Shown here: in pieces, positions 11,948 through 16,371 of the stretch
Position numbering within the stretch: position 1 is the stretch's first letter
Layout: each line of letters starts with the position of its first letter
NCBI RefSeq assembly: GCF_017348835.2
Contig: NZ_CP071375.1
Strand: one strand, 5' to 3'
Origin: Escherichia coli
GTDB taxonomy: Bacteria; Pseudomonadota; Gammaproteobacteria; Enterobacterales; Enterobacteriaceae
Length of the DNA stretch: 64,000 nucleotides
Translations under genes and position numbers: made by a program
Notes under the pieces: generated by a model
Seen by the model: only the letters and a program-made list of their open reading frames with translations
What the model was told of the DNA's origin: nothing
Databases searched by the model: none

Positions 11948-12188
11948 AGTGTCATTCAATATAGTTTTTAGGAATTTCTTTAGATTGACAATAATTAATA
12001 TAGCGTCTCCACATGCGATATTTCTTAAATAATATTTTATTATTACCACTTTTAATTCAGGGATAATGCGATGTTCTAGCCCTCAAATAATGTGAGATAA
12101 ATAGTGCTGTGACATTGCATTTTTGCCCTGATTTATCCATGATCGAATTGTGACATTTGTCATACAACGAATAGGTTTTGTACTTACT

Positions 12189-13772
12189 ATGGAATGGATT
12201 GCCGATCCGTCTATCTGGGCCGGGTTAATCACGCTGATTGTGATCGAACTGGTCCTCGGCATTGATAACCTGGTCTTTATTGCCATCCTCGCCGAAAAAC
12301 TACCGCCGAAGCAGCGCGACCGCGCACGGGTTACCGGGCTGCTGCTGGCGATGTTAATGCGCCTGTTACTGCTGGCGTCAATCTCCTGGCTGGTCACCCT
12401 GACTCAACCGCTGTTCAGCTTCCGCTCGTTTACCTTTAGCGCCCGCGACTTAATCATGCTGATTGGTGGTTTCTTCCTGTTGTTCAAAGCCACGATGGAG
12501 CTGAACGAACGGCTGGAAGGGAAAGACAGCAATAATCCCACACAACGCAAAGGTGCGAAGTTCTGGGGCGTGGTGACACAAATTGTGGTACTGGACGCCA
12601 TCTTCTCACTCGACTCAGTGATTACCGCCGTCGGGATGGTCGACCATTTACTGGTCATGATGGCCGCCGTGGTTATCGCTATCAGCCTGATGTTGATGGC
12701 CAGCAAGCCGTTAACGCAATTTGTTAACAGTCACCCGACGATCGTTATTCTCTGCTTAAGCTTCCTGTTGATGATTGGCTTTAGTCTGGTGGCAGAAGGT
12801 TTCGGTTTCGTCATTCCGAAAGGCTACCTGTACGCTGCCATTGGTTTCTCGGTGATGATCGAGGCGCTCAATCAGTTGGCTATCTTTAACCGGCGACGTT
12901 TTCTTTCCGCTAACCAGACGCTGCGCCAGCGGACTACCGAAGCGGTAATGCGCCTGCTTAGCGGGCAAAAAGAGGATGCGGAACTGGACGCCGAAACCGC
13001 GTCCATGCTGGTGGATCATGGTAACCAGCAGATCTTTAATCCGCAGGAACGGCGGATGATTGAGCGGGTACTTAATCTTAACCAGCGTACCGTCAGCAGC
13101 ATTATGACGTCGCGCCACGATATTGAGCATATCGATCTCAACGCGCCGGAAGACGAGATCCGCCAGTTGCTGGAGCGAAATCAGCATACGCGGCTGGTGG
13201 TTACCGACGGTGATGACGCAGAAGATTTGCTCGGTGTTGTTCACGTTATCGACCTGCTACAACAGTCACTGCGCGGCGAACCGCTCAACCTGCGGGTGTT
13301 GATTCGCCAGCCGCTGGTGTTCCCGGAAACCTTGCCATTGTTACCTGCCCTGGAGCAGTTCCGTAATGCCCGCACACACTTTGCTTTTGTGGTGGATGAG
13401 TTTGGTTCAGTGGAAGGGATTGTGACATTAAGTGACGTCACTGAAACCATTGCCGGTAACTTACCGAACGAAGTGGAAGAGATCGACGCCCGCCATGATA
13501 TTCAGAAGAATGCGGACGGATCCTGGACGGCGAATGGTCATATGCCGCTGGAAGATCTGGTGCAATATGTGCCGCTGCCGCTGGATGAAAAACGTGAATA
13601 TCACACCATTGCCGGGCTGTTGATGGAGTATTTGCAGCGTATTCCAAAACCTGGCGAAGAAGTTCAGGTGGGGGATTATTTGCTTAAAACGTTGCAGGTA
13701 GAAAGCCATCGCGTGCAGAAGGTGCAAATTATTCCGCTTCGTAAGGATGGCGAGATGGAGTACGAGGTGTGA
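12189..13772 (+). CDS. yegH: Inner-membrane protein YegH (TerC-family membrane domain plus CBS pair and CorC/HlyC C-terminal domain)
   Basis: ORF track 540 aa; ATG at 12189 gives the 527-aa product [30 protein letters not shown]... Confidence 0.9.
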
Positions 13773-13781
13773 TAAAACATC

Positions 13782-13818
13782 AAATGCGCAGGTTCAAACT
13801 GCGCATTTGATTTATACA
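13782..13818 (+). terminator. Intrinsic terminator after yegH
   Basis: Hairpin caaatgcgcag-(gttcaaa)-ctgcgcatttg followed by a T-rich tract. Confidence 0.55.
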
Positions 13819-13846
13819 AAATTTAGTATAATCTAAGGATGGAGTA

Positions 13847-14185
13847 ATGAGAAAAAAGCTGGCTTTTCTTGATACCAGTCTTGACGATTTACGCGCATTT
13901 CCAGAATCGTCTCGACAGGAAATTGGCTATCAACTCGACAGGATCCAACAAGGGTTAAACCCATACGACTGGAAACCTTTTTCAACTATCGGCCCTGGTG
14001 TGCGAGAGATTCGTACTCGCGATGCTGATGGGATCTATCGCGTCATGTATGTCGCAAAATTTGAAGAAGCGGTTTACGTATTGCATTGTTTTCAAAAGAA
14101 AACACAGACTACCAGTCAATCGGATATTGATTTAGCCAAACGACGCTATAAAGAACTTGTTCAGGAGCGGAAAAATGAAAATTGA
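13847..14185 (+). CDS. Type II toxin, RelE/ParE superfamily, HigB-like (phage Gp49-like)
   Basis: 112-aa ORF MRKKLAFLDTSLDDLRAFPESSRQEIGYQLDRIQQGL...VYVLHCFQKKTQ; small basic protein, toxin-first gene order, overlaps the following HTH gene; RBS aaggatgga upstream. Confidence 0.65.
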   Translation: MRKKLAFLDTSLDDLRAFPESSRQEIGYQLDRIQQGLNPYDWKPFSTIGPGVREIRTRDADGIYRVMYVAKFEEAVYVLHCFQKKTQTTSQSDIDLAKRRYKELVQERKNEN

Positions 14186-14465
14186 AACCTTTGATAGTGT
14201 GTGGGATGCGGTGAGTGACACCCCTGAACAAGCGGAAAATATGCGGATCCGTGCCGAGCTTGTAACGATCATTAATAACTGGATTGAACAACAAGGGATT
14301 AGCCAGGCTCAGGCAGCTTCTGCTTTAGGGGTCACTCAACCTCGCATCTCTGAACTTGCCAGAGGTAAAATCCAGATCTTTAGTATCGATAAATTGATCA
14401 CCATGATGGCTCATGCAGGACTACATATTCAACGTATTGAAGTTCAATATCCACATGCTGCTTAG
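14175..14465 (+). CDS. Type II antitoxin, XRE-family helix-turn-helix, HigA-like
   Basis: ORF 14157..14465; likely start at ATG 14175 (MKIETFDSVW..., RBS ggagcgg); HTH motif ISQAQAASALGVTQPRISELARGK; overlaps the toxin stop by 11 nt. Confidence 0.65.
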   Translation: MKIETFDSVWDAVSDTPEQAENMRIRAELVTIINNWIEQQGISQAQAASALGVTQPRISELARGKIQIFSIDKLITMMAHAGLHIQRIEVQYPHAA

Positions 14466-14477
14466 TGCTATAAATAC

Positions 14478-14505
14478 AGATGGCGACAAATTGATGCCGC
14501 CATCT
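14478..14505. terminator. Hairpin between convergent higA-like gene and asmA (likely bidirectional terminator)
   Basis: agatggcg-(12 nt loop)-cgccatct palindrome flanked by A/T-rich sequence on both sides. Confidence 0.4.
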
Positions 14506-14517
14506 ATATAACTTGTC

Positions 14518-16371
14518 TTACATCTTCTCCAGCAACTTCTTCACATCTTTGCCATTGCGGGAATCTTTATTCCGCTCGGCCCAGTCATTCAGGCGACGTT
14601 TCGCTTCGTCCTGTAGATGTTTGCGCAGTAACTGATCCACTTGCAGACTGTAATTGAGTTGCTGCCAGTTGCCATAAACCCGCAGCGGTACTGGCGTTTC
14701 TTTGAGGAAATCAATCAGTTTGCTTTCCCCGTTCCAGCCACCCACGACCCGAATATCAAACTGGGTGTCGCAGGTTTGATCTGCCAGATTCAACATACCT
14801 TCCCCTGTCAACGCCAGCACAGGCGATTGACCTTGCATGTCGTTTAACGTCACGACGCCATCCTTCAACGTCAAATCGGTGGTAAAGCGGTCAAGACGCG
14901 TCACGTTATCGAAGTTTTCAGCGGCCTTCACATCACCACCATTACGTTCTACCGCTTGCTGAATCATCTGCTGGAAGTTCATCCCTTCCATGCGCGTATC
15001 GGCCATTTCGACATGCGCCGTCCCCTGCCAGTTGTGGCGGAATGCGTCGGCATCTATGTCAGCACCGGAGAAATCACCAGCCAGTGACATCTTTCCGGTC
15101 AACGAAATCGGATAGTTAAACGCCTTCAGAATGGTGCCAATCTCAACGTTTTCCAGCCGTGGCTGGAAGTTTATCCGCGGATTTATTGATGTCGCGTCCA
15201 GCGTGCCCGGCAGTGAAACCTGTCCACCGTTAAGTTTGCCCTGCAGTTGAGTAATTTCCAGCAAACCCGACTTGTTGGTCATTTGCGTGGCAACATCTGT
15301 AAAATTCATTCCGCGCCAGCGCACGTTACTGGCCTGCAACAAAATATCAGCCGTAAAGCCTTGCAGTCCCTGATAGGCCGGTTCATCAATACGCGAAGAA
15401 ATGACCGGGCGCGGCAACGTTGATTGGCTCTGCCCCTGCTGCGCGGCACCGTTTTCACCATTCGCGGTTTCATTAAGCGGGATGAGGTTGTCAAGATTCA
15501 GTTGCGGGAATTGCAGCCTCAGCTGCCATTCCGGTTTCTCTGTCAGCGTGACCTGTGCTTGCCCGCTCAGCGTACTATCATTGGCGGTCAAACTAATTTG
15601 GTTAAATGAAAGGCGTTTATGTGACTCCTGCCACTGGGCCTGGAAACTCCCCTGCCCCTGAATACCTTGTTTTGGTAAATCTGCACCCTGCAACTGCCAG
15701 TTAATTTGTTCAATAGCCGCCGTTAAATCATGCGGATAATCAGAAGCATCTACCGTACCGTTAAGGGATATCGTGAGATCGCGCTGATCGCGATTAACCC
15801 GCCCGGAGAACTCAAATGAGCCACGATGTTGGGGATCTTGTTCCATTTGCAGGCGGATATTGCGGATTGTCACCTGCTCGTCATCTTCATGCTGGAACAC
15901 CAGAACGCTGTCCGCCACCTTAAGACTGGATATATCAAACGACCATCCGCGATCGTCTGACAGATCCGGCAAGGTATTGTCGCGCGGTGCAACCGGAGCG
16001 TCTTCACTGCGCACCGCTTCCGTCTGCGGCGTCAGTTGGATCACTGCCCCTTTTAGCATCACCTGCTTAACGCTCAGTTGATGACTCAGTAGTGGTAAAA
16101 GCGCCACGTCCAGGCGCATGTTGTCGGCGCGAACCAGTGGCTGGCTCGCGCCCTGGGCGGTGAGAGACATTCGCCCGGAGAGGATACTAAGCTGCGGCCA
16201 GACGTGCCAACGCAGTGGCCCGTCGAGCTGCAATTGATAACCGCTACGTGCAGCAACTTGCTTGACCATATAGTCGCGGAAATCATTCGGATTCACCAGC
16301 AACACTAACGCAGATAACCCGGCCACCAGCACGACCAGGAGTATCATCAGCGTCGTCAGAAATCGTCTCAT
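14518..16371 (-). CDS. asmA: Outer-membrane protein assembly factor AsmA
   Basis: 617-aa ORF MRRFLTTLMILLVVLVAGLSALVLLVNPNDFRDYMVKQV...; N-terminal anchor plus long periplasmic domain. Confidence 0.92.
   Translation of the reverse strand: MRRFLTTLMILLVVLVAGLSALVLLVNPNDFRDYMVKQVAARSGYQLQLDGPLRWHVWPQLSILSGRMSLTAQGASQPLVRADNMRLDVALLPLLSHQLSVKQVMLKGAVIQLTPQTEAVRSEDAPVAPRDNTLPDLSDDRGWSFDISSLKVADSVLVFQHEDDEQVTIRNIRLQMEQDPQHRGSFEFSGRVNRDQRDLTISLNGTVDASDYPHDLTAAIEQINWQLQGADLPKQGIQGQGSFQAQWQESHKRLSFNQISLTANDSTLSGQAQVTLTEKPEWQLRLQFPQLNLDNLIPLNETANGENGAAQQGQSQSTLPRPVISSRIDEPAYQGLQGFTADILLQASNVRWRGMNFTDVATQMTNKSGLLEITQLQGKLNGGQVSLPGTLDATSINPRINFQPRLENVEIGTILKAFNYPISLTGKMSLAGDFSGADIDADAFRHNWQGTAHVEMADTRMEGMNFQQMIQQAVERNGGDVKAAENFDNVTRLDRFTTDLTLKDGVVTLNDMQGQSPVLALTGEGMLNLADQTCDTQFDIRVVGGWNGESKLIDFLKETPVPLRVYGNWQQLNYSLQVDQLLRKHLQDEAKRRLNDWAERNKDSRNGKDVKKLLEKM

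What the first reader, a model, noticed from the sequence alone, without database searches (positions are those of the whole stretch)
13847..14465. HigB/HigA-like type II toxin-antitoxin islet between yegH and asmA
Two small overlapping plus-strand genes lie between the convergent core genes yegH and asmA. The first (112 aa) looks like a RelE/ParE-superfamily HigB-like (phage Gp49-like) toxin; the second (about 96 aa from ATG 14175) has an XRE-type helix-turn-helix. Toxin-first order with an 11-nt overlap is the hig-type arrangement. From memory yegH and asmA are adjacent in K-12, so this looks like a strain-variable insertion, bracketed by a hairpin terminator on each side (13782-13818, 14478-14505).
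Basis: partly seen in the sequence, partly recalled or inferred. Interest (0 to 1): 0.5.

Follow-up and report, generated by a model that had tools for sequence, protein, structure and literature searches.

The report
Gp49/HTH toxin-antitoxin pair, yegH-asmA spacer
Two small overlapping genes between yegH and asmA are an ordinary, already annotated type II toxin-antitoxin pair (a RelE-like mRNA-cutting toxin and its DNA-binding antidote), carried by about one in seven E. coli strains and decaying in some of them.

Summary
Two overlapping plus-strand ORFs (13847-14185, 112 aa; 14175-14465, 96 aa; 11-nt overlap) fill the yegH-asmA spacer.

- **Family.** The first protein matches Pfam Gp49 (PF05973, E=1.5e-30). 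Its model (pLDDT 92.9) looks most like M. tuberculosis HigB1 and other RelE/ParE toxins. The second matches HTH_37 (PF13744, E=1.7e-21), an XRE-type fold. RefSeq already annotates the pair this way.
- **Precise type.** It is the tad-ata / Gp49-type "HigBA" group. It is not the canonical HigB/HigA families, whose models it misses or scores below cut-off.
- **Linkage.** In all 80 related loci fetched from other species, the antitoxin homologue follows the toxin directly.
- **Candidate operator.** A 16-bp palindrome (ATACAAAATTTTGTAT) lies just upstream of the toxin in 69 of 79 of those loci. In the window it is 13814-13829 and overlaps a perfect TATAAT.
- **Distribution.** 792 of 5,426 complete E. 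coli genomes hold the whole 744-bp, 42% G+C cassette. It replaces the entire spacer rather than inserting into it. About 118 more genomes hold only part of it.
- **Decay.** The toxin has been broken at least three separate ways with the antitoxin left intact.

Toxicity, mRNA cleavage and repression are inferred, not shown.

The parts
13774..14517 (.). Allele-specific cassette (744 bp, 41.9% G+C against 52-53% in yegH and asmA). It replaces the whole yegH-asmA spacer.
   Evidence: Alignments with the K-12, REP-only and long alleles diverge straight after the yegH stop and rejoin at the asmA stop. G+C. Complete in 792 of 5,426 genomes.
13779..13811 (.). Left hairpin (16-nt arms). Possibly the yegH terminator. 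It covers the position where relatives have their -35.
   Evidence: I1.: -20.6 kcal/mol, z = -7.9. One search accepts it as terminator-like only on the minus strand.
13814..13829 (.). Candidate operator: palindrome ATACAAAATTTAGTAT (extended arms 13812-13831). Predicted binding site of the antitoxin dimer.
   Evidence: I4. The same 16-mer, with 4 mismatches or fewer, lies 16-20 nt upstream of the toxin ATG in 69 of 79 homologous loci, against 4 of 1,335 control windows. It occurs once in the 64-kb window. It does not vary among 7 E. coli alleles. Binding is inferred.
13827..13832 (+). Perfect -10 hexamer TATAAT, overlapping the right half of the palindrome.
   Evidence: Read from the sequence. 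It aligns with the conserved TATAnT of relatives. No canonical -35 is present: 13804-13809 matches 0 of 6, and TTGATT lies at a 14-nt spacing. The scan found no + strand promoter. The promoter is inferred.
13847..14185 (+). Toxin gene, 112 aa, Gp49 family of the RelE/ParE superfamily.
   Evidence: [quoted passage not shown]
14163..14167 (+). Shine-Dalgarno AGGAG for the antitoxin, 7 nt before its ATG, inside the toxin gene.
   Evidence: Read from the sequence.
14175..14465 (+). Antitoxin gene, 96 aa: a short N-terminal segment (conserved F6, W10, D11, A12) followed by an XRE-type HTH (HTH_37).
   Evidence: A homologue lies directly downstream of the toxin in 80 of 80 loci.
14474..14509 (.). 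Right hairpin. More stable on the minus strand, where UAUUUAU follows it. Probably the asmA terminator and possibly the end of the TA operon.
   Evidence: I2.: + strand -14.3 kcal/mol, - strand -23.7 kcal/mol (z = -7.5).

Best explanation
This is an intact chromosomal type II toxin-antitoxin operon of the Gp49/HTH_37 (tad-ata, 'HigBA-like') type.

How it most likely works:
- The two genes are transcribed together and probably translationally coupled (11-nt overlap, AGGAG inside the toxin gene).
- The toxin has a RelE fold. By analogy with M. tuberculosis HigB1 and the IncC-plasmid and A. baumannii Gp49-type HigB toxins, it enters the ribosomal A site, cuts the mRNA being translated and arrests growth.
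- The antitoxin neutralises the toxin by direct binding, probably through its conserved N-terminal segment.
- As a dimer, the antitoxin's XRE-type HTH binds the 16-bp palindrome 13814-13829, which overlaps the -10, and so represses the operon. The toxin may act as co-repressor.
- If the labile antitoxin is not replenished, free toxin is released.

What is shown here: family membership, fold, conservation of catalytic-site counterparts, strict gene linkage, the conserved palindrome, presence/absence in the population, and repeated loss of the toxin with the antitoxin kept.

What is inferred: toxicity, ribosome-dependent mRNA cleavage, neutralisation, DNA binding, promoter use, and any physiological role (addiction, stress response or phage defence).
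For: - **Toxin family.** Pfam Gp49 E=1.5e-30 over the full model. PHROG 2523 E=5.7e-37. 33% identity to phage N15 gp49, which gives the Pfam family its name; Dziewit et al. 2007 report that N15 encodes a tad-ata-type TA system (title as listed in the references of PMC5906591).
- **Toxin fold.** AlphaFold2 model with pLDDT 92.9 and topology beta-alpha-alpha-beta4-long C-terminal helix. Best Foldseek matches in the PDB are Mtb HigB1 (7awk, and 7nbu on the ribosome), S. pneumoniae HigB, ParE2, V. cholerae HigB2, RelE and YafQ.
- **Catalytic site.** E54, R56, F82, K84 and Q87 are invariant and R65 is in 60 of 61 relatives. They line up with HigB1 E66, R68, R77, F93, K95 and Q98, and with pneumococcal E66, R68, R73, F90 and K92 (PMC9098466; alignments).
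- **Antitoxin.** HTH_37 E=1.7e-21. PDB 2a6c E=2e-14. XRE fold close to 2o38 and 2a6c, then HipB and HigA antitoxins.
- **Linkage.** 80 of 80 loci from other species carry the antitoxin homologue directly downstream; 66 of 80 have the ATGA 4-nt overlap.
- **Operator.** The palindrome is present in 69 of 79 loci against 4 of 1,335 control windows.
- **Precedent.** Gp49 toxins are listed as ribosome-dependent mRNases with toxin-first order (PMC11980606). Gp49-HTH_37 pairs are recognised TA modules in Tn3-family transposons (PMC7157771). For the A. baumannii Gp49-type pair, the antitoxin represses the promoter and the toxin is co-repressor (PMC5906591). The IncC tad-ata toxin is a growth-inhibiting, ribosome-dependent RNase (PMC8265657).
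- **Decay pattern expected of an active toxin.** A 23-bp deletion (13911-13933), an IS1 insertion and a 5' truncation each destroy the toxin while the antitoxin ORF stays intact. The antitoxin shows 8 synonymous and 2 non-synonymous changes among 7 alleles.
- **Existing annotation.** PGAP annotates the pair in the same way.
Against: - No experiment on this locus was found in the searchable literature.
- No canonical + strand promoter: the -35 position matches 0 of 6, and the scan finds none. The pair could be weakly expressed or depend on read-through from yegH.
- Position 88 is Thr, where 42 of 61 relatives have Lys. The equivalent HigB1 K99A mutation abolished toxicity.
- Among 7 alleles the toxin shows 0 synonymous and 4 non-synonymous changes. 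The numbers are small, but they fit relaxed constraint.
[quoted passage not shown] PMC11980606 lists HigB3 under the Gp49 family and PMC5906591 calls both Gp49-domain homologues. Family membership therefore does not guarantee activity.
- Scores are below the NCBIfam cut-offs for the nearest curated TA models.
Confidence: 0.85

Rival explanations
1. The pair descends from a TA module, but in E. coli the toxin is attenuated or inactive. The locus would then survive as a neutral remnant, or mainly as an autoregulated XRE-family repressor.
For: - K-to-T at position 88, equivalent to HigB1 K99, whose alanine mutant is non-toxic.
- The toxin shows 0 synonymous and 4 non-synonymous changes, against 8 and 2 in the antitoxin.
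- The toxin is disrupted in roughly 19% or more of carriers: about 50 with the 23-bp deletion, about 118 with partial cassettes, and one IS1 insertion.
- Strain NDM2 tolerates a frameshifted antitoxin.
- No canonical -35.
- The related M. tuberculosis toxins HigB2 and HigB3 are non-toxic.
Against: - The toxin ORF is full length in about 740 genomes, and one protein sequence (WP_001227701.1) recurs across divergent backgrounds.
- The main catalytic-site counterparts are invariant.
- Position 88 also varies in relatives (A in 7, R in 6, T in 4), so Lys is not strictly required.
- In NDM2 the toxin also carries W42C at a Trp kept in 58 of 61 relatives. That suggests the toxin had to be disabled before the antitoxin could be lost.
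- Breaking the toxin repeatedly while always keeping the antitoxin is what an active toxin predicts.
Confidence: 0.1
2. The module's main role is anti-phage defence by abortive infection. Phage-induced shut-off of host transcription would deplete the antitoxin and release the RNase.
For: - Close homologues occur in prophages and phages: PHROG 2523, Mycobacterium abscessus prophages at 58% identity, and N15.
- There are weak hits to PADLOC candidate-defence models: PDC-M64C at 7e-5 for the antitoxin and NsnC at 1.4e-3 for the toxin.
- The strain-variable distribution resembles that of defence genes.
- RelE/ParE toxins are discussed as defence toxins in PMC11980606 (abstract).
Against: - There is no significant match to any established defence-system model. 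The PADLOC hits are marginal, and the toxin and antitoxin hit different systems.
- The locus is not in a defence island; the neighbours are wza, yegH, asmA and dcd.
- No experimental data were found.
Confidence: 0.05

Closest known systems
tad-ata / Gp49-type TA modules: Paracoccus plasmid pAMI2 tad-ata, phage N15 (gp49/gp48), the SXT element (Dziewit et al. 2007), and IncC plasmid tad-ata ('higBA')
   Same: The toxin belongs to the same Pfam family (Gp49, PF05973) and is 33% identical to N15 gp49. The order is toxin first with overlapping genes, and the antitoxin is a small HTH protein. The IncC member is a ribosome-dependent RNase and an addiction module (PMC8265657).
   Different: The antitoxin is not detectably similar to N15 gp48; here it is HTH_37. 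This copy is chromosomal, in a core-gene spacer, not on a plasmid, phage or ICE. It has not been tested.
Gp49-HTH_37 modules of Tn3-family transposons (Tn4662a, TnPosp1 and others; PMC7157771)
   Same: The pairing of Pfam families is identical (PF05973 toxin, PF13744 antitoxin) and the order is toxin first.
   Different: No transposase, resolvase or res site is nearby. Sequence identity to those transposon copies was not measured.
M. tuberculosis HigB1 (Rv1955) of the TAC system
   Same: It is the best structural match (7awk and 7nbu, TM-score about 0.65) and shares the long C-terminal helix. Counterparts of E66, R68, R77, F93, K95 and Q98 are conserved.
   Different: About 20% identity. There is no SecB-like chaperone gene here. 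The K99 counterpart is Thr. HigB1's preference for CCA codons cannot be assumed for this toxin.
Canonical HigBA (Proteus vulgaris Rts1, E. coli K-12 YgjN/YgjM, V. cholerae HigBA1/2)
   Same: RelE/ParE superfamily toxin, toxin-first operon and an XRE-type HTH antitoxin. V. cholerae HigB2 is among the fold matches.
   Different: The sequence families differ. The toxin gives no hit to PF05015 or PF09907, and the antitoxin scores below the cut-off of TIGR02607. PMC11980606 files V. cholerae HigB2 under PF06296.
Pantoea / Erwinia plasmid-borne homologues
   Same: These are the nearest relatives outside E. coli: toxin 70-74% and antitoxin about 65% identical, with the same palindrome (TATACGAAATTTCGTATA) and the same SD-containing leader.
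   Different: They are plasmid-borne. They have a canonical TTGCAC -35 at a 16-nt spacing from the -10, which the E. coli cassette lacks.

Membership tests
Gp49 family of RelE/ParE toxins (Pfam PF05973) | Significant full-length match to the family HMM | tested here: met
   E=1.5e-30, 105.6 bits, model positions 1-90 of 90.
Gp49 family of RelE/ParE toxins (Pfam PF05973) | RelE/ParE fold with the long C-terminal helix typical of Gp49-like toxins | tested here: met
   Model pLDDT 92.9 with helix 91-111. Top PDB matches are HigB1, pneumococcal HigB, ParE2, HigB2, RelE and YafQ. The long helix is described in PMC9098466.
Gp49 family of RelE/ParE toxins (Pfam PF05973) | Conserved catalytic-site residues (Glu-x-Arg on beta2, Arg on beta3, F-x-K-x-x-Q-K after beta4) | tested here: met
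   E54, R56, R65, F82, K84 and Q87 are present and 98-100% conserved in 61 relatives. The last Lys is Thr88, where the family has K in 42 of 61.
Gp49 family of RelE/ParE toxins (Pfam PF05973) | Ribosome-dependent mRNA cleavage and growth arrest | not testable with these tools
   Needs expression and cleavage assays.
Type II toxin-antitoxin system | Two small adjacent co-oriented genes, toxin plus protein antitoxin, kept together across genomes | tested here: met
   11-nt overlap. The antitoxin homologue lies directly downstream in 80 of 80 loci from other species.
Type II toxin-antitoxin system | Antitoxin binds and neutralises the toxin | not testable with these tools
   No complex prediction or assay was available. 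Indirect support only: the toxin is lost with the antitoxin kept in three independent alleles.
Type II toxin-antitoxin system | Autoregulation through an operator at the promoter | tested here: inconclusive
   A conserved palindrome overlaps the -10 in 69 of 79 loci and in the window. Binding and repression were not tested.
HTH_37 antitoxins (Pfam PF13744) | Significant match to the HMM and an XRE-type helix-turn-helix fold | tested here: met
   E=1.7e-21. Model pLDDT 88.9. Fold matches are 2o38 and 2a6c, then HipB and HigA.
Canonical HigA (NCBIfam TIGR02607 antidote_HigA) | Score at or above the curated cut-off (47.7 bits) | tested here: not met
   18.6 bits.
Canonical HigB (Pfam HigB_toxin PF09907 / HigB-like_toxin PF05015) | Match to either HMM | tested here: not met
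   Neither family is among the Pfam hits with E of 10 or less.
NCBIfam TIGR02683 (upstrm_HI1419 RelE/ParE toxin) | Score at or above the curated cut-off (62.85 bits) | tested here: not met
   27 bits.
Known anti-phage defence systems (PADLOC-DB 2.0) | Significant match of both components to the models of one system | tested here: not met
   Only marginal hits, and to different systems (NsnC 1.4e-3; PDC-M64C 7e-5).
Mobile genetic island or insertion | Target-site duplication, IS, integrase or tRNA at the boundaries, or the cassette found at other sites | tested here: not met
   The boundaries are clean replacements at the two stop codons. There was at most one place per record in E. coli. The 'plasmid' copies examined keep the chromosomal neighbours: wza-yegH...asmA-dcd and asmA-dcd.

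The most novel reading that the evidence does not exclude
The Gp49/HTH_37 subfamily found here keeps an almost unchanged 16-bp operator (ATACAAAATTTTGTAT) built into its own -10. It does so across many proteobacterial lineages, with toxin homologues at about 58% identity also in Acidobacteria and Actinobacteria. In most members the toxin ATG lies only 6-8 nt after the -10, so the mRNA is probably leaderless. If that is real, the promoter, operator and antitoxin move between hosts as one self-contained unit, and antitoxins of homologous modules on incoming plasmids or prophages could cross-repress or cross-neutralise chromosomal copies such as this one (an anti-addiction role). The E. coli copy has lost the canonical -35 and carries K88T. 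It would then be a partly domesticated version kept for that protective role.
Probability: 0.12. Interest if true: 0.4.

Novelty: already known. Interest (0 to 1): 0.2.

Why it matters
In itself it matters little. It is one more strain-variable chromosomal TA module of a well-described family, and RefSeq already labels it a RelE/ParE toxin plus an HTH protein.

It is modestly useful in three ways:
- It is a clean natural series for studying TA decay: intact, frameshifted, IS-disrupted, 5'-truncated, remnant and absent, all at one fixed chromosomal site. O157:H7 and O55:H7 carry the intact form.
- The strongly conserved operator gives a ready, testable prediction for how HTH_37 antitoxins recognise DNA.
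- It is a marker locus showing that a core-gene spacer can exist as several unrelated alleles.

Tried and rejected
- **V. cholerae HigB2/HigA2 as the family (my recollection).** Rejected. PMC11980606 files HigB2 under PF06296, and it is only a distant fold match.
- **Canonical HigB/HigA membership.** Not met.
- **Independent mobility in E. coli.** The three near-identical 'plasmid' hits looked like evidence for it. The two examined keep the chromosomal neighbours (wza-yegH...asmA-dcd in one, asmA-dcd in the other), so they are chromosomal segments in records labelled plasmid.
- **Presence in other Escherichia species.** The scan of one genome per species gave no hit above 71% identity (Pantoea), so there is no evidence that the cassette at this site predates E. 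coli.
- **N15 gp48 as an antitoxin homologue.** No similarity.
- **Known RNA families in or around the cassette.** Only a chance-level STnc40 hit (21 bits, E=0.87).
- **Second copy of the toxin or the operator elsewhere in the window.** None.
- **Canonical sigma-70 promoter on the + strand.** Not found by the scan.
- **Literature on this exact locus.** Searches by protein accession, by yegH/asmA and by O157 plus Gp49 found nothing specific.
- **Which spacer allele is ancestral.** Chimeric X + truncated-TA and X + remnant alleles exist, but the evidence does not separate 'X displaced the TA' from 'illegitimate recombination between two alleles'.

Full report
**1. The observation**

The window holds two overlapping plus-strand ORFs between the convergent genes yegH (12150-13772, +) and asmA (14518-16371, -).
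- ORF 1 runs 13847-14185 and encodes 112 aa.
- ORF 2 runs 14175-14465 from its ATG and encodes 96 aa. A TTG at 14157 is the first possible start.
- They overlap by 11 nt. An AGGAG (14163-14167) lies 7 nt before the second ATG.
- RefSeq records with the identical sequence carry the same two CDS. They are annotated 'type II toxin-antitoxin system RelE/ParE family toxin' (WP_001227701.1) and 'helix-turn-helix domain-containing protein'.

The left one is 13779-13811 (-20.6 kcal/mol, z = -7.9). The right one is 14474-14509 (-14.3 kcal/mol on the + strand, -23.7 on the - strand). Their role as terminators is less secure. The consensus scan accepts only the left one, and only on the minus strand. The right one fits best as the asmA terminator.

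**2. What the proteins are**

*Toxin.*
- It matches Pfam Gp49 (PF05973) end to end at E=1.5e-30 and PHROG 2523 at 5.7e-37.
- It is 33% identical to gp49 of phage N15, which gives the family its name.
- An AlphaFold2 model built on 61 homologues is confident (pLDDT 92.9). Its order of elements is beta-alpha-alpha-beta4 followed by a long C-terminal helix.
- Foldseek against the PDB returns only RelE/ParE-superfamily toxins at the top. These are M. tuberculosis HigB1 (7awk, and 7nbu on the ribosome), S. pneumoniae HigB, ParE2, V. cholerae HigB2, RelE and YafQ.
- The proposed catalytic residues of HigB1 are E66, R68, R77, F93, K95, Q98 and K99. The pneumococcal counterparts are E66, R68, R73, F90 and K92 (PMC9098466).
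- They correspond here to E54, R56, R65, F82, K84, Q87 and T88. The first six are invariant or nearly so in 61 relatives. Position 88 is Lys in 42 of 61 relatives but Thr in E. coli.

*Antitoxin.*
- It matches HTH_37 (PF13744, E=1.7e-21) and the structural-genomics protein 2a6c (E=2e-14).
- Its model (pLDDT 88.9) is an XRE-type five-helix domain preceded by a less confident N-terminal segment. That segment carries conserved F6, W10, D11 and A12.
- The nearest folds are 2o38 and 2a6c, then HipB and HigA antitoxins.

**3. Precise family**

The name 'HigBA' fits only loosely.
- The toxin does not hit Pfam HigB_toxin or HigB-like_toxin.
- The antitoxin scores 18.6 bits against a 47.7-bit cut-off for NCBIfam antidote_HigA. 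The toxin scores 27 bits against 62.85 for TIGR02683.
- The correct box is the Gp49/HTH_37 group, also called tad-ata.
- A 2025 survey lists Gp49 toxins (tad, HigB1, HigB3) as ribosome-dependent mRNases with toxin-first order (PMC11980606).
- Gp49-HTH_37 pairs are recognised TA passengers of Tn3-family transposons (PMC7157771).
- Tested relatives include the IncC plasmid tad-ata/higBA, a growth-inhibiting ribosome-dependent RNase and addiction module (PMC8265657).
- Another is the A. baumannii pAB120 HigBA2, where the antitoxin represses the promoter and the toxin acts as co-repressor (PMC5906591).

**4. Evidence from related loci**

A scan of one genome per species found 418 relatives, and the best 80 loci were fetched.
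- They come mostly from a wide range of Proteobacteria, with a few from Acidobacteria and Actinobacteria. Toxin identity to the window is 58-71%.
- All 80 have an antitoxin homologue directly downstream on the same strand. In 66 of them the overlap is the 4-nt ATGA.
- The upstream DNA is otherwise unrelated between loci. Even so, 69 of 79 loci carry the palindrome ATACAAAATTTTGTAT (4 mismatches or fewer) centred 16-20 nt before the toxin ATG. Only 4 of 1,335 control windows from the same loci do.
- The right half-site forms the -10 (TATAnT). A conserved TTG lies 17 nt upstream of that hexamer.
- In the window the motif is ATACAAAATTTAGTAT (13814-13829, arms 13812-13831). It overlaps a perfect TATAAT (13827-13832), occurs once in the 64 kb and does not vary among seven E. 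coli alleles.

This palindrome is the obvious candidate operator for the HTH_37 dimer. One weakness applies to the window itself. The canonical -35 position (13804-13809, CATTTG) matches 0 of 6 because the yegH-side hairpin occupies it. TTGATT lies at a 14-nt spacing, and the scan finds no plus-strand promoter. Promoter use is therefore inferred, and read-through from yegH remains possible.

**5. Distribution in E. coli**

Numbers of carriers:
- 792 of 5,426 complete genomes hold the whole 744-bp cassette (13774-14517), always at this site. About 118 more hold only part of it.
- Carriers include O157:H7 and O55:H7.
- The three near-identical 'plasmid' hits are not evidence of mobility. The two examined keep the chromosomal neighbours, wza-yegH...asmA-dcd in one and asmA-dcd in the other.

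Nature of the cassette:
- It has 41.9% G+C against 52-53% in the flanking genes.
- It replaces the entire spacer. Other strains have a REP element alone (67 bp), the 273-bp K-12 allele or a 451-bp allele. None of these shares sequence with the cassette.
- There is no duplication, IS or integrase at the boundaries.
- No other Escherichia species representative carries a close copy. The best hits outside E. coli are 71% identical among species-representative genomes (Pantoea) and 70-74% on Pantoea and Erwinia plasmids.

**6. Decay alleles**

The toxin has been inactivated at least three separate ways, each time with the antitoxin ORF left intact:
- A 23-bp deletion between CTCGACAGG direct repeats (13911-13933). 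About 50 records fall in the matching identity band, and all three sampled have the deletion.
- An IS1 insertion with a 9-bp duplication near 14070-14078.
- Replacement of everything up to 14015 by a repeated element 'X'.

One strain keeps only the last 104 nt of the cassette.

The single case of the opposite kind is strain NDM2, whose antitoxin is frameshifted. Its toxin carries W42C at a Trp conserved in 58 of 61 relatives.

Among seven alleles the antitoxin has 8 synonymous and 2 non-synonymous differences. The toxin has 0 and 4. The sample is small and was not drawn at random.

Losing the toxin first while keeping the antitoxin is what an active toxin predicts. It is indirect evidence only.

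**7. Verdict**

The family is Gp49/HTH_37 rather than canonical HigBA. The cassette is an alternative spacer allele rather than a simple insertion.

The most likely mechanism is a standard type II TA circuit. A ribosome-dependent mRNase toxin is neutralised by an autorepressing XRE-type antitoxin that binds a palindrome over the -10. Family, fold, residues, linkage and operator conservation are shown here. Toxicity, cleavage, neutralisation and DNA binding are inferred.

The main rival reading is an attenuated toxin in a module on its way to decay (T88, the 0:4 pattern, no -35). I give it about 0.1. A primary role in phage defence has no specific support.

The locus is already annotated as a TA toxin plus an HTH protein, and the family is well studied. 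No paper on this particular chromosomal copy was found. Interest is low.

Noticed in passing
L003:373-760 (strain 254D-1), L005:112-500 (P276M), L001:374-~580 (K-12 keeps only the 3' half); absent from the window: In other strains the same spacer holds a ~390-nt element 'X'. It is multi-copy in E. coli (median 3 places per genome, up to 7, with some copies only ~82-84% identical). It gives sub-threshold hits to the TwoAYGGAY RNA family (RF01731, 31.9 bits against a gathering score of 43), and two hairpin loops reading AYGGAY can be seen..
   Followed up: partly
L005 (P276M) ~490-503; L006 (WB61) 701-804: Chimeric spacer alleles exist: X joined directly to the toxin gene at window-equivalent 14016, and X joined to the last 104 nt of the cassette together with a truncated yegH. 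The X/toxin junction lies exactly where X meets the REP element in the long allele. Whether X displaced the TA or two alleles recombined illegitimately is unresolved.
   Followed up: partly
L089:2335-3010 (E. coli NDM2, record labelled plasmid): The antitoxin is frameshifted by a 5-nt duplication (ACTCA) after window-equivalent 14333. The toxin ORF is full length but carries W42C at a Trp kept in 58 of 61 relatives. This is probably a toxin-dead allele that allowed the antitoxin to be lost.
   Followed up: partly
L010-L088, about 30 nt upstream of each toxin start: In most non-enterobacterial relatives the toxin ATG lies only 6-8 nt after the TATAnT -10, which suggests leaderless toxin mRNAs. 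The E. coli, Pantoea and Cedecea versions have a longer gap containing GGAG/GAGG.
   Followed up: no
window 13804-13812: The conserved -35 TTG of the family is missing at the canonical 17-nt spacing (CATTTG, 0 of 6), because the 3' arm of the yegH-side hairpin occupies that position. TTGATT lies 14 nt from the -10.
   Followed up: partly
window 13847-14465 compared with L090, L092-L096: Among seven E. coli alleles the toxin has 0 synonymous and 4 non-synonymous differences (V52L, V69I, I94V, A97D). The antitoxin has 8 synonymous and 2 non-synonymous. The window's antitoxin has I42 where the six other alleles compared have F42.
   Followed up: partly
window 14108-14110 (toxin codon 88): Thr sits where 42 of 61 relatives have Lys. 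The equivalent HigB1 K99A mutant lost toxicity in M. smegmatis.
   Followed up: partly
phage records MW314858.1 and 11 related; L056, L086: Toxins about 58% identical occur in Mycobacterium abscessus prophages and in Mycobacterium and Rhodococcus genomes. This subfamily has therefore moved between Proteobacteria and Actinobacteria with little change.
   Followed up: no
window 13736-13811: Weak Rfam hit to Salmonella sRNA STnc40 (21.2 bits against a gathering score of 45, E=0.87), spanning the end of yegH and the left hairpin. Most likely chance.
   Followed up: no
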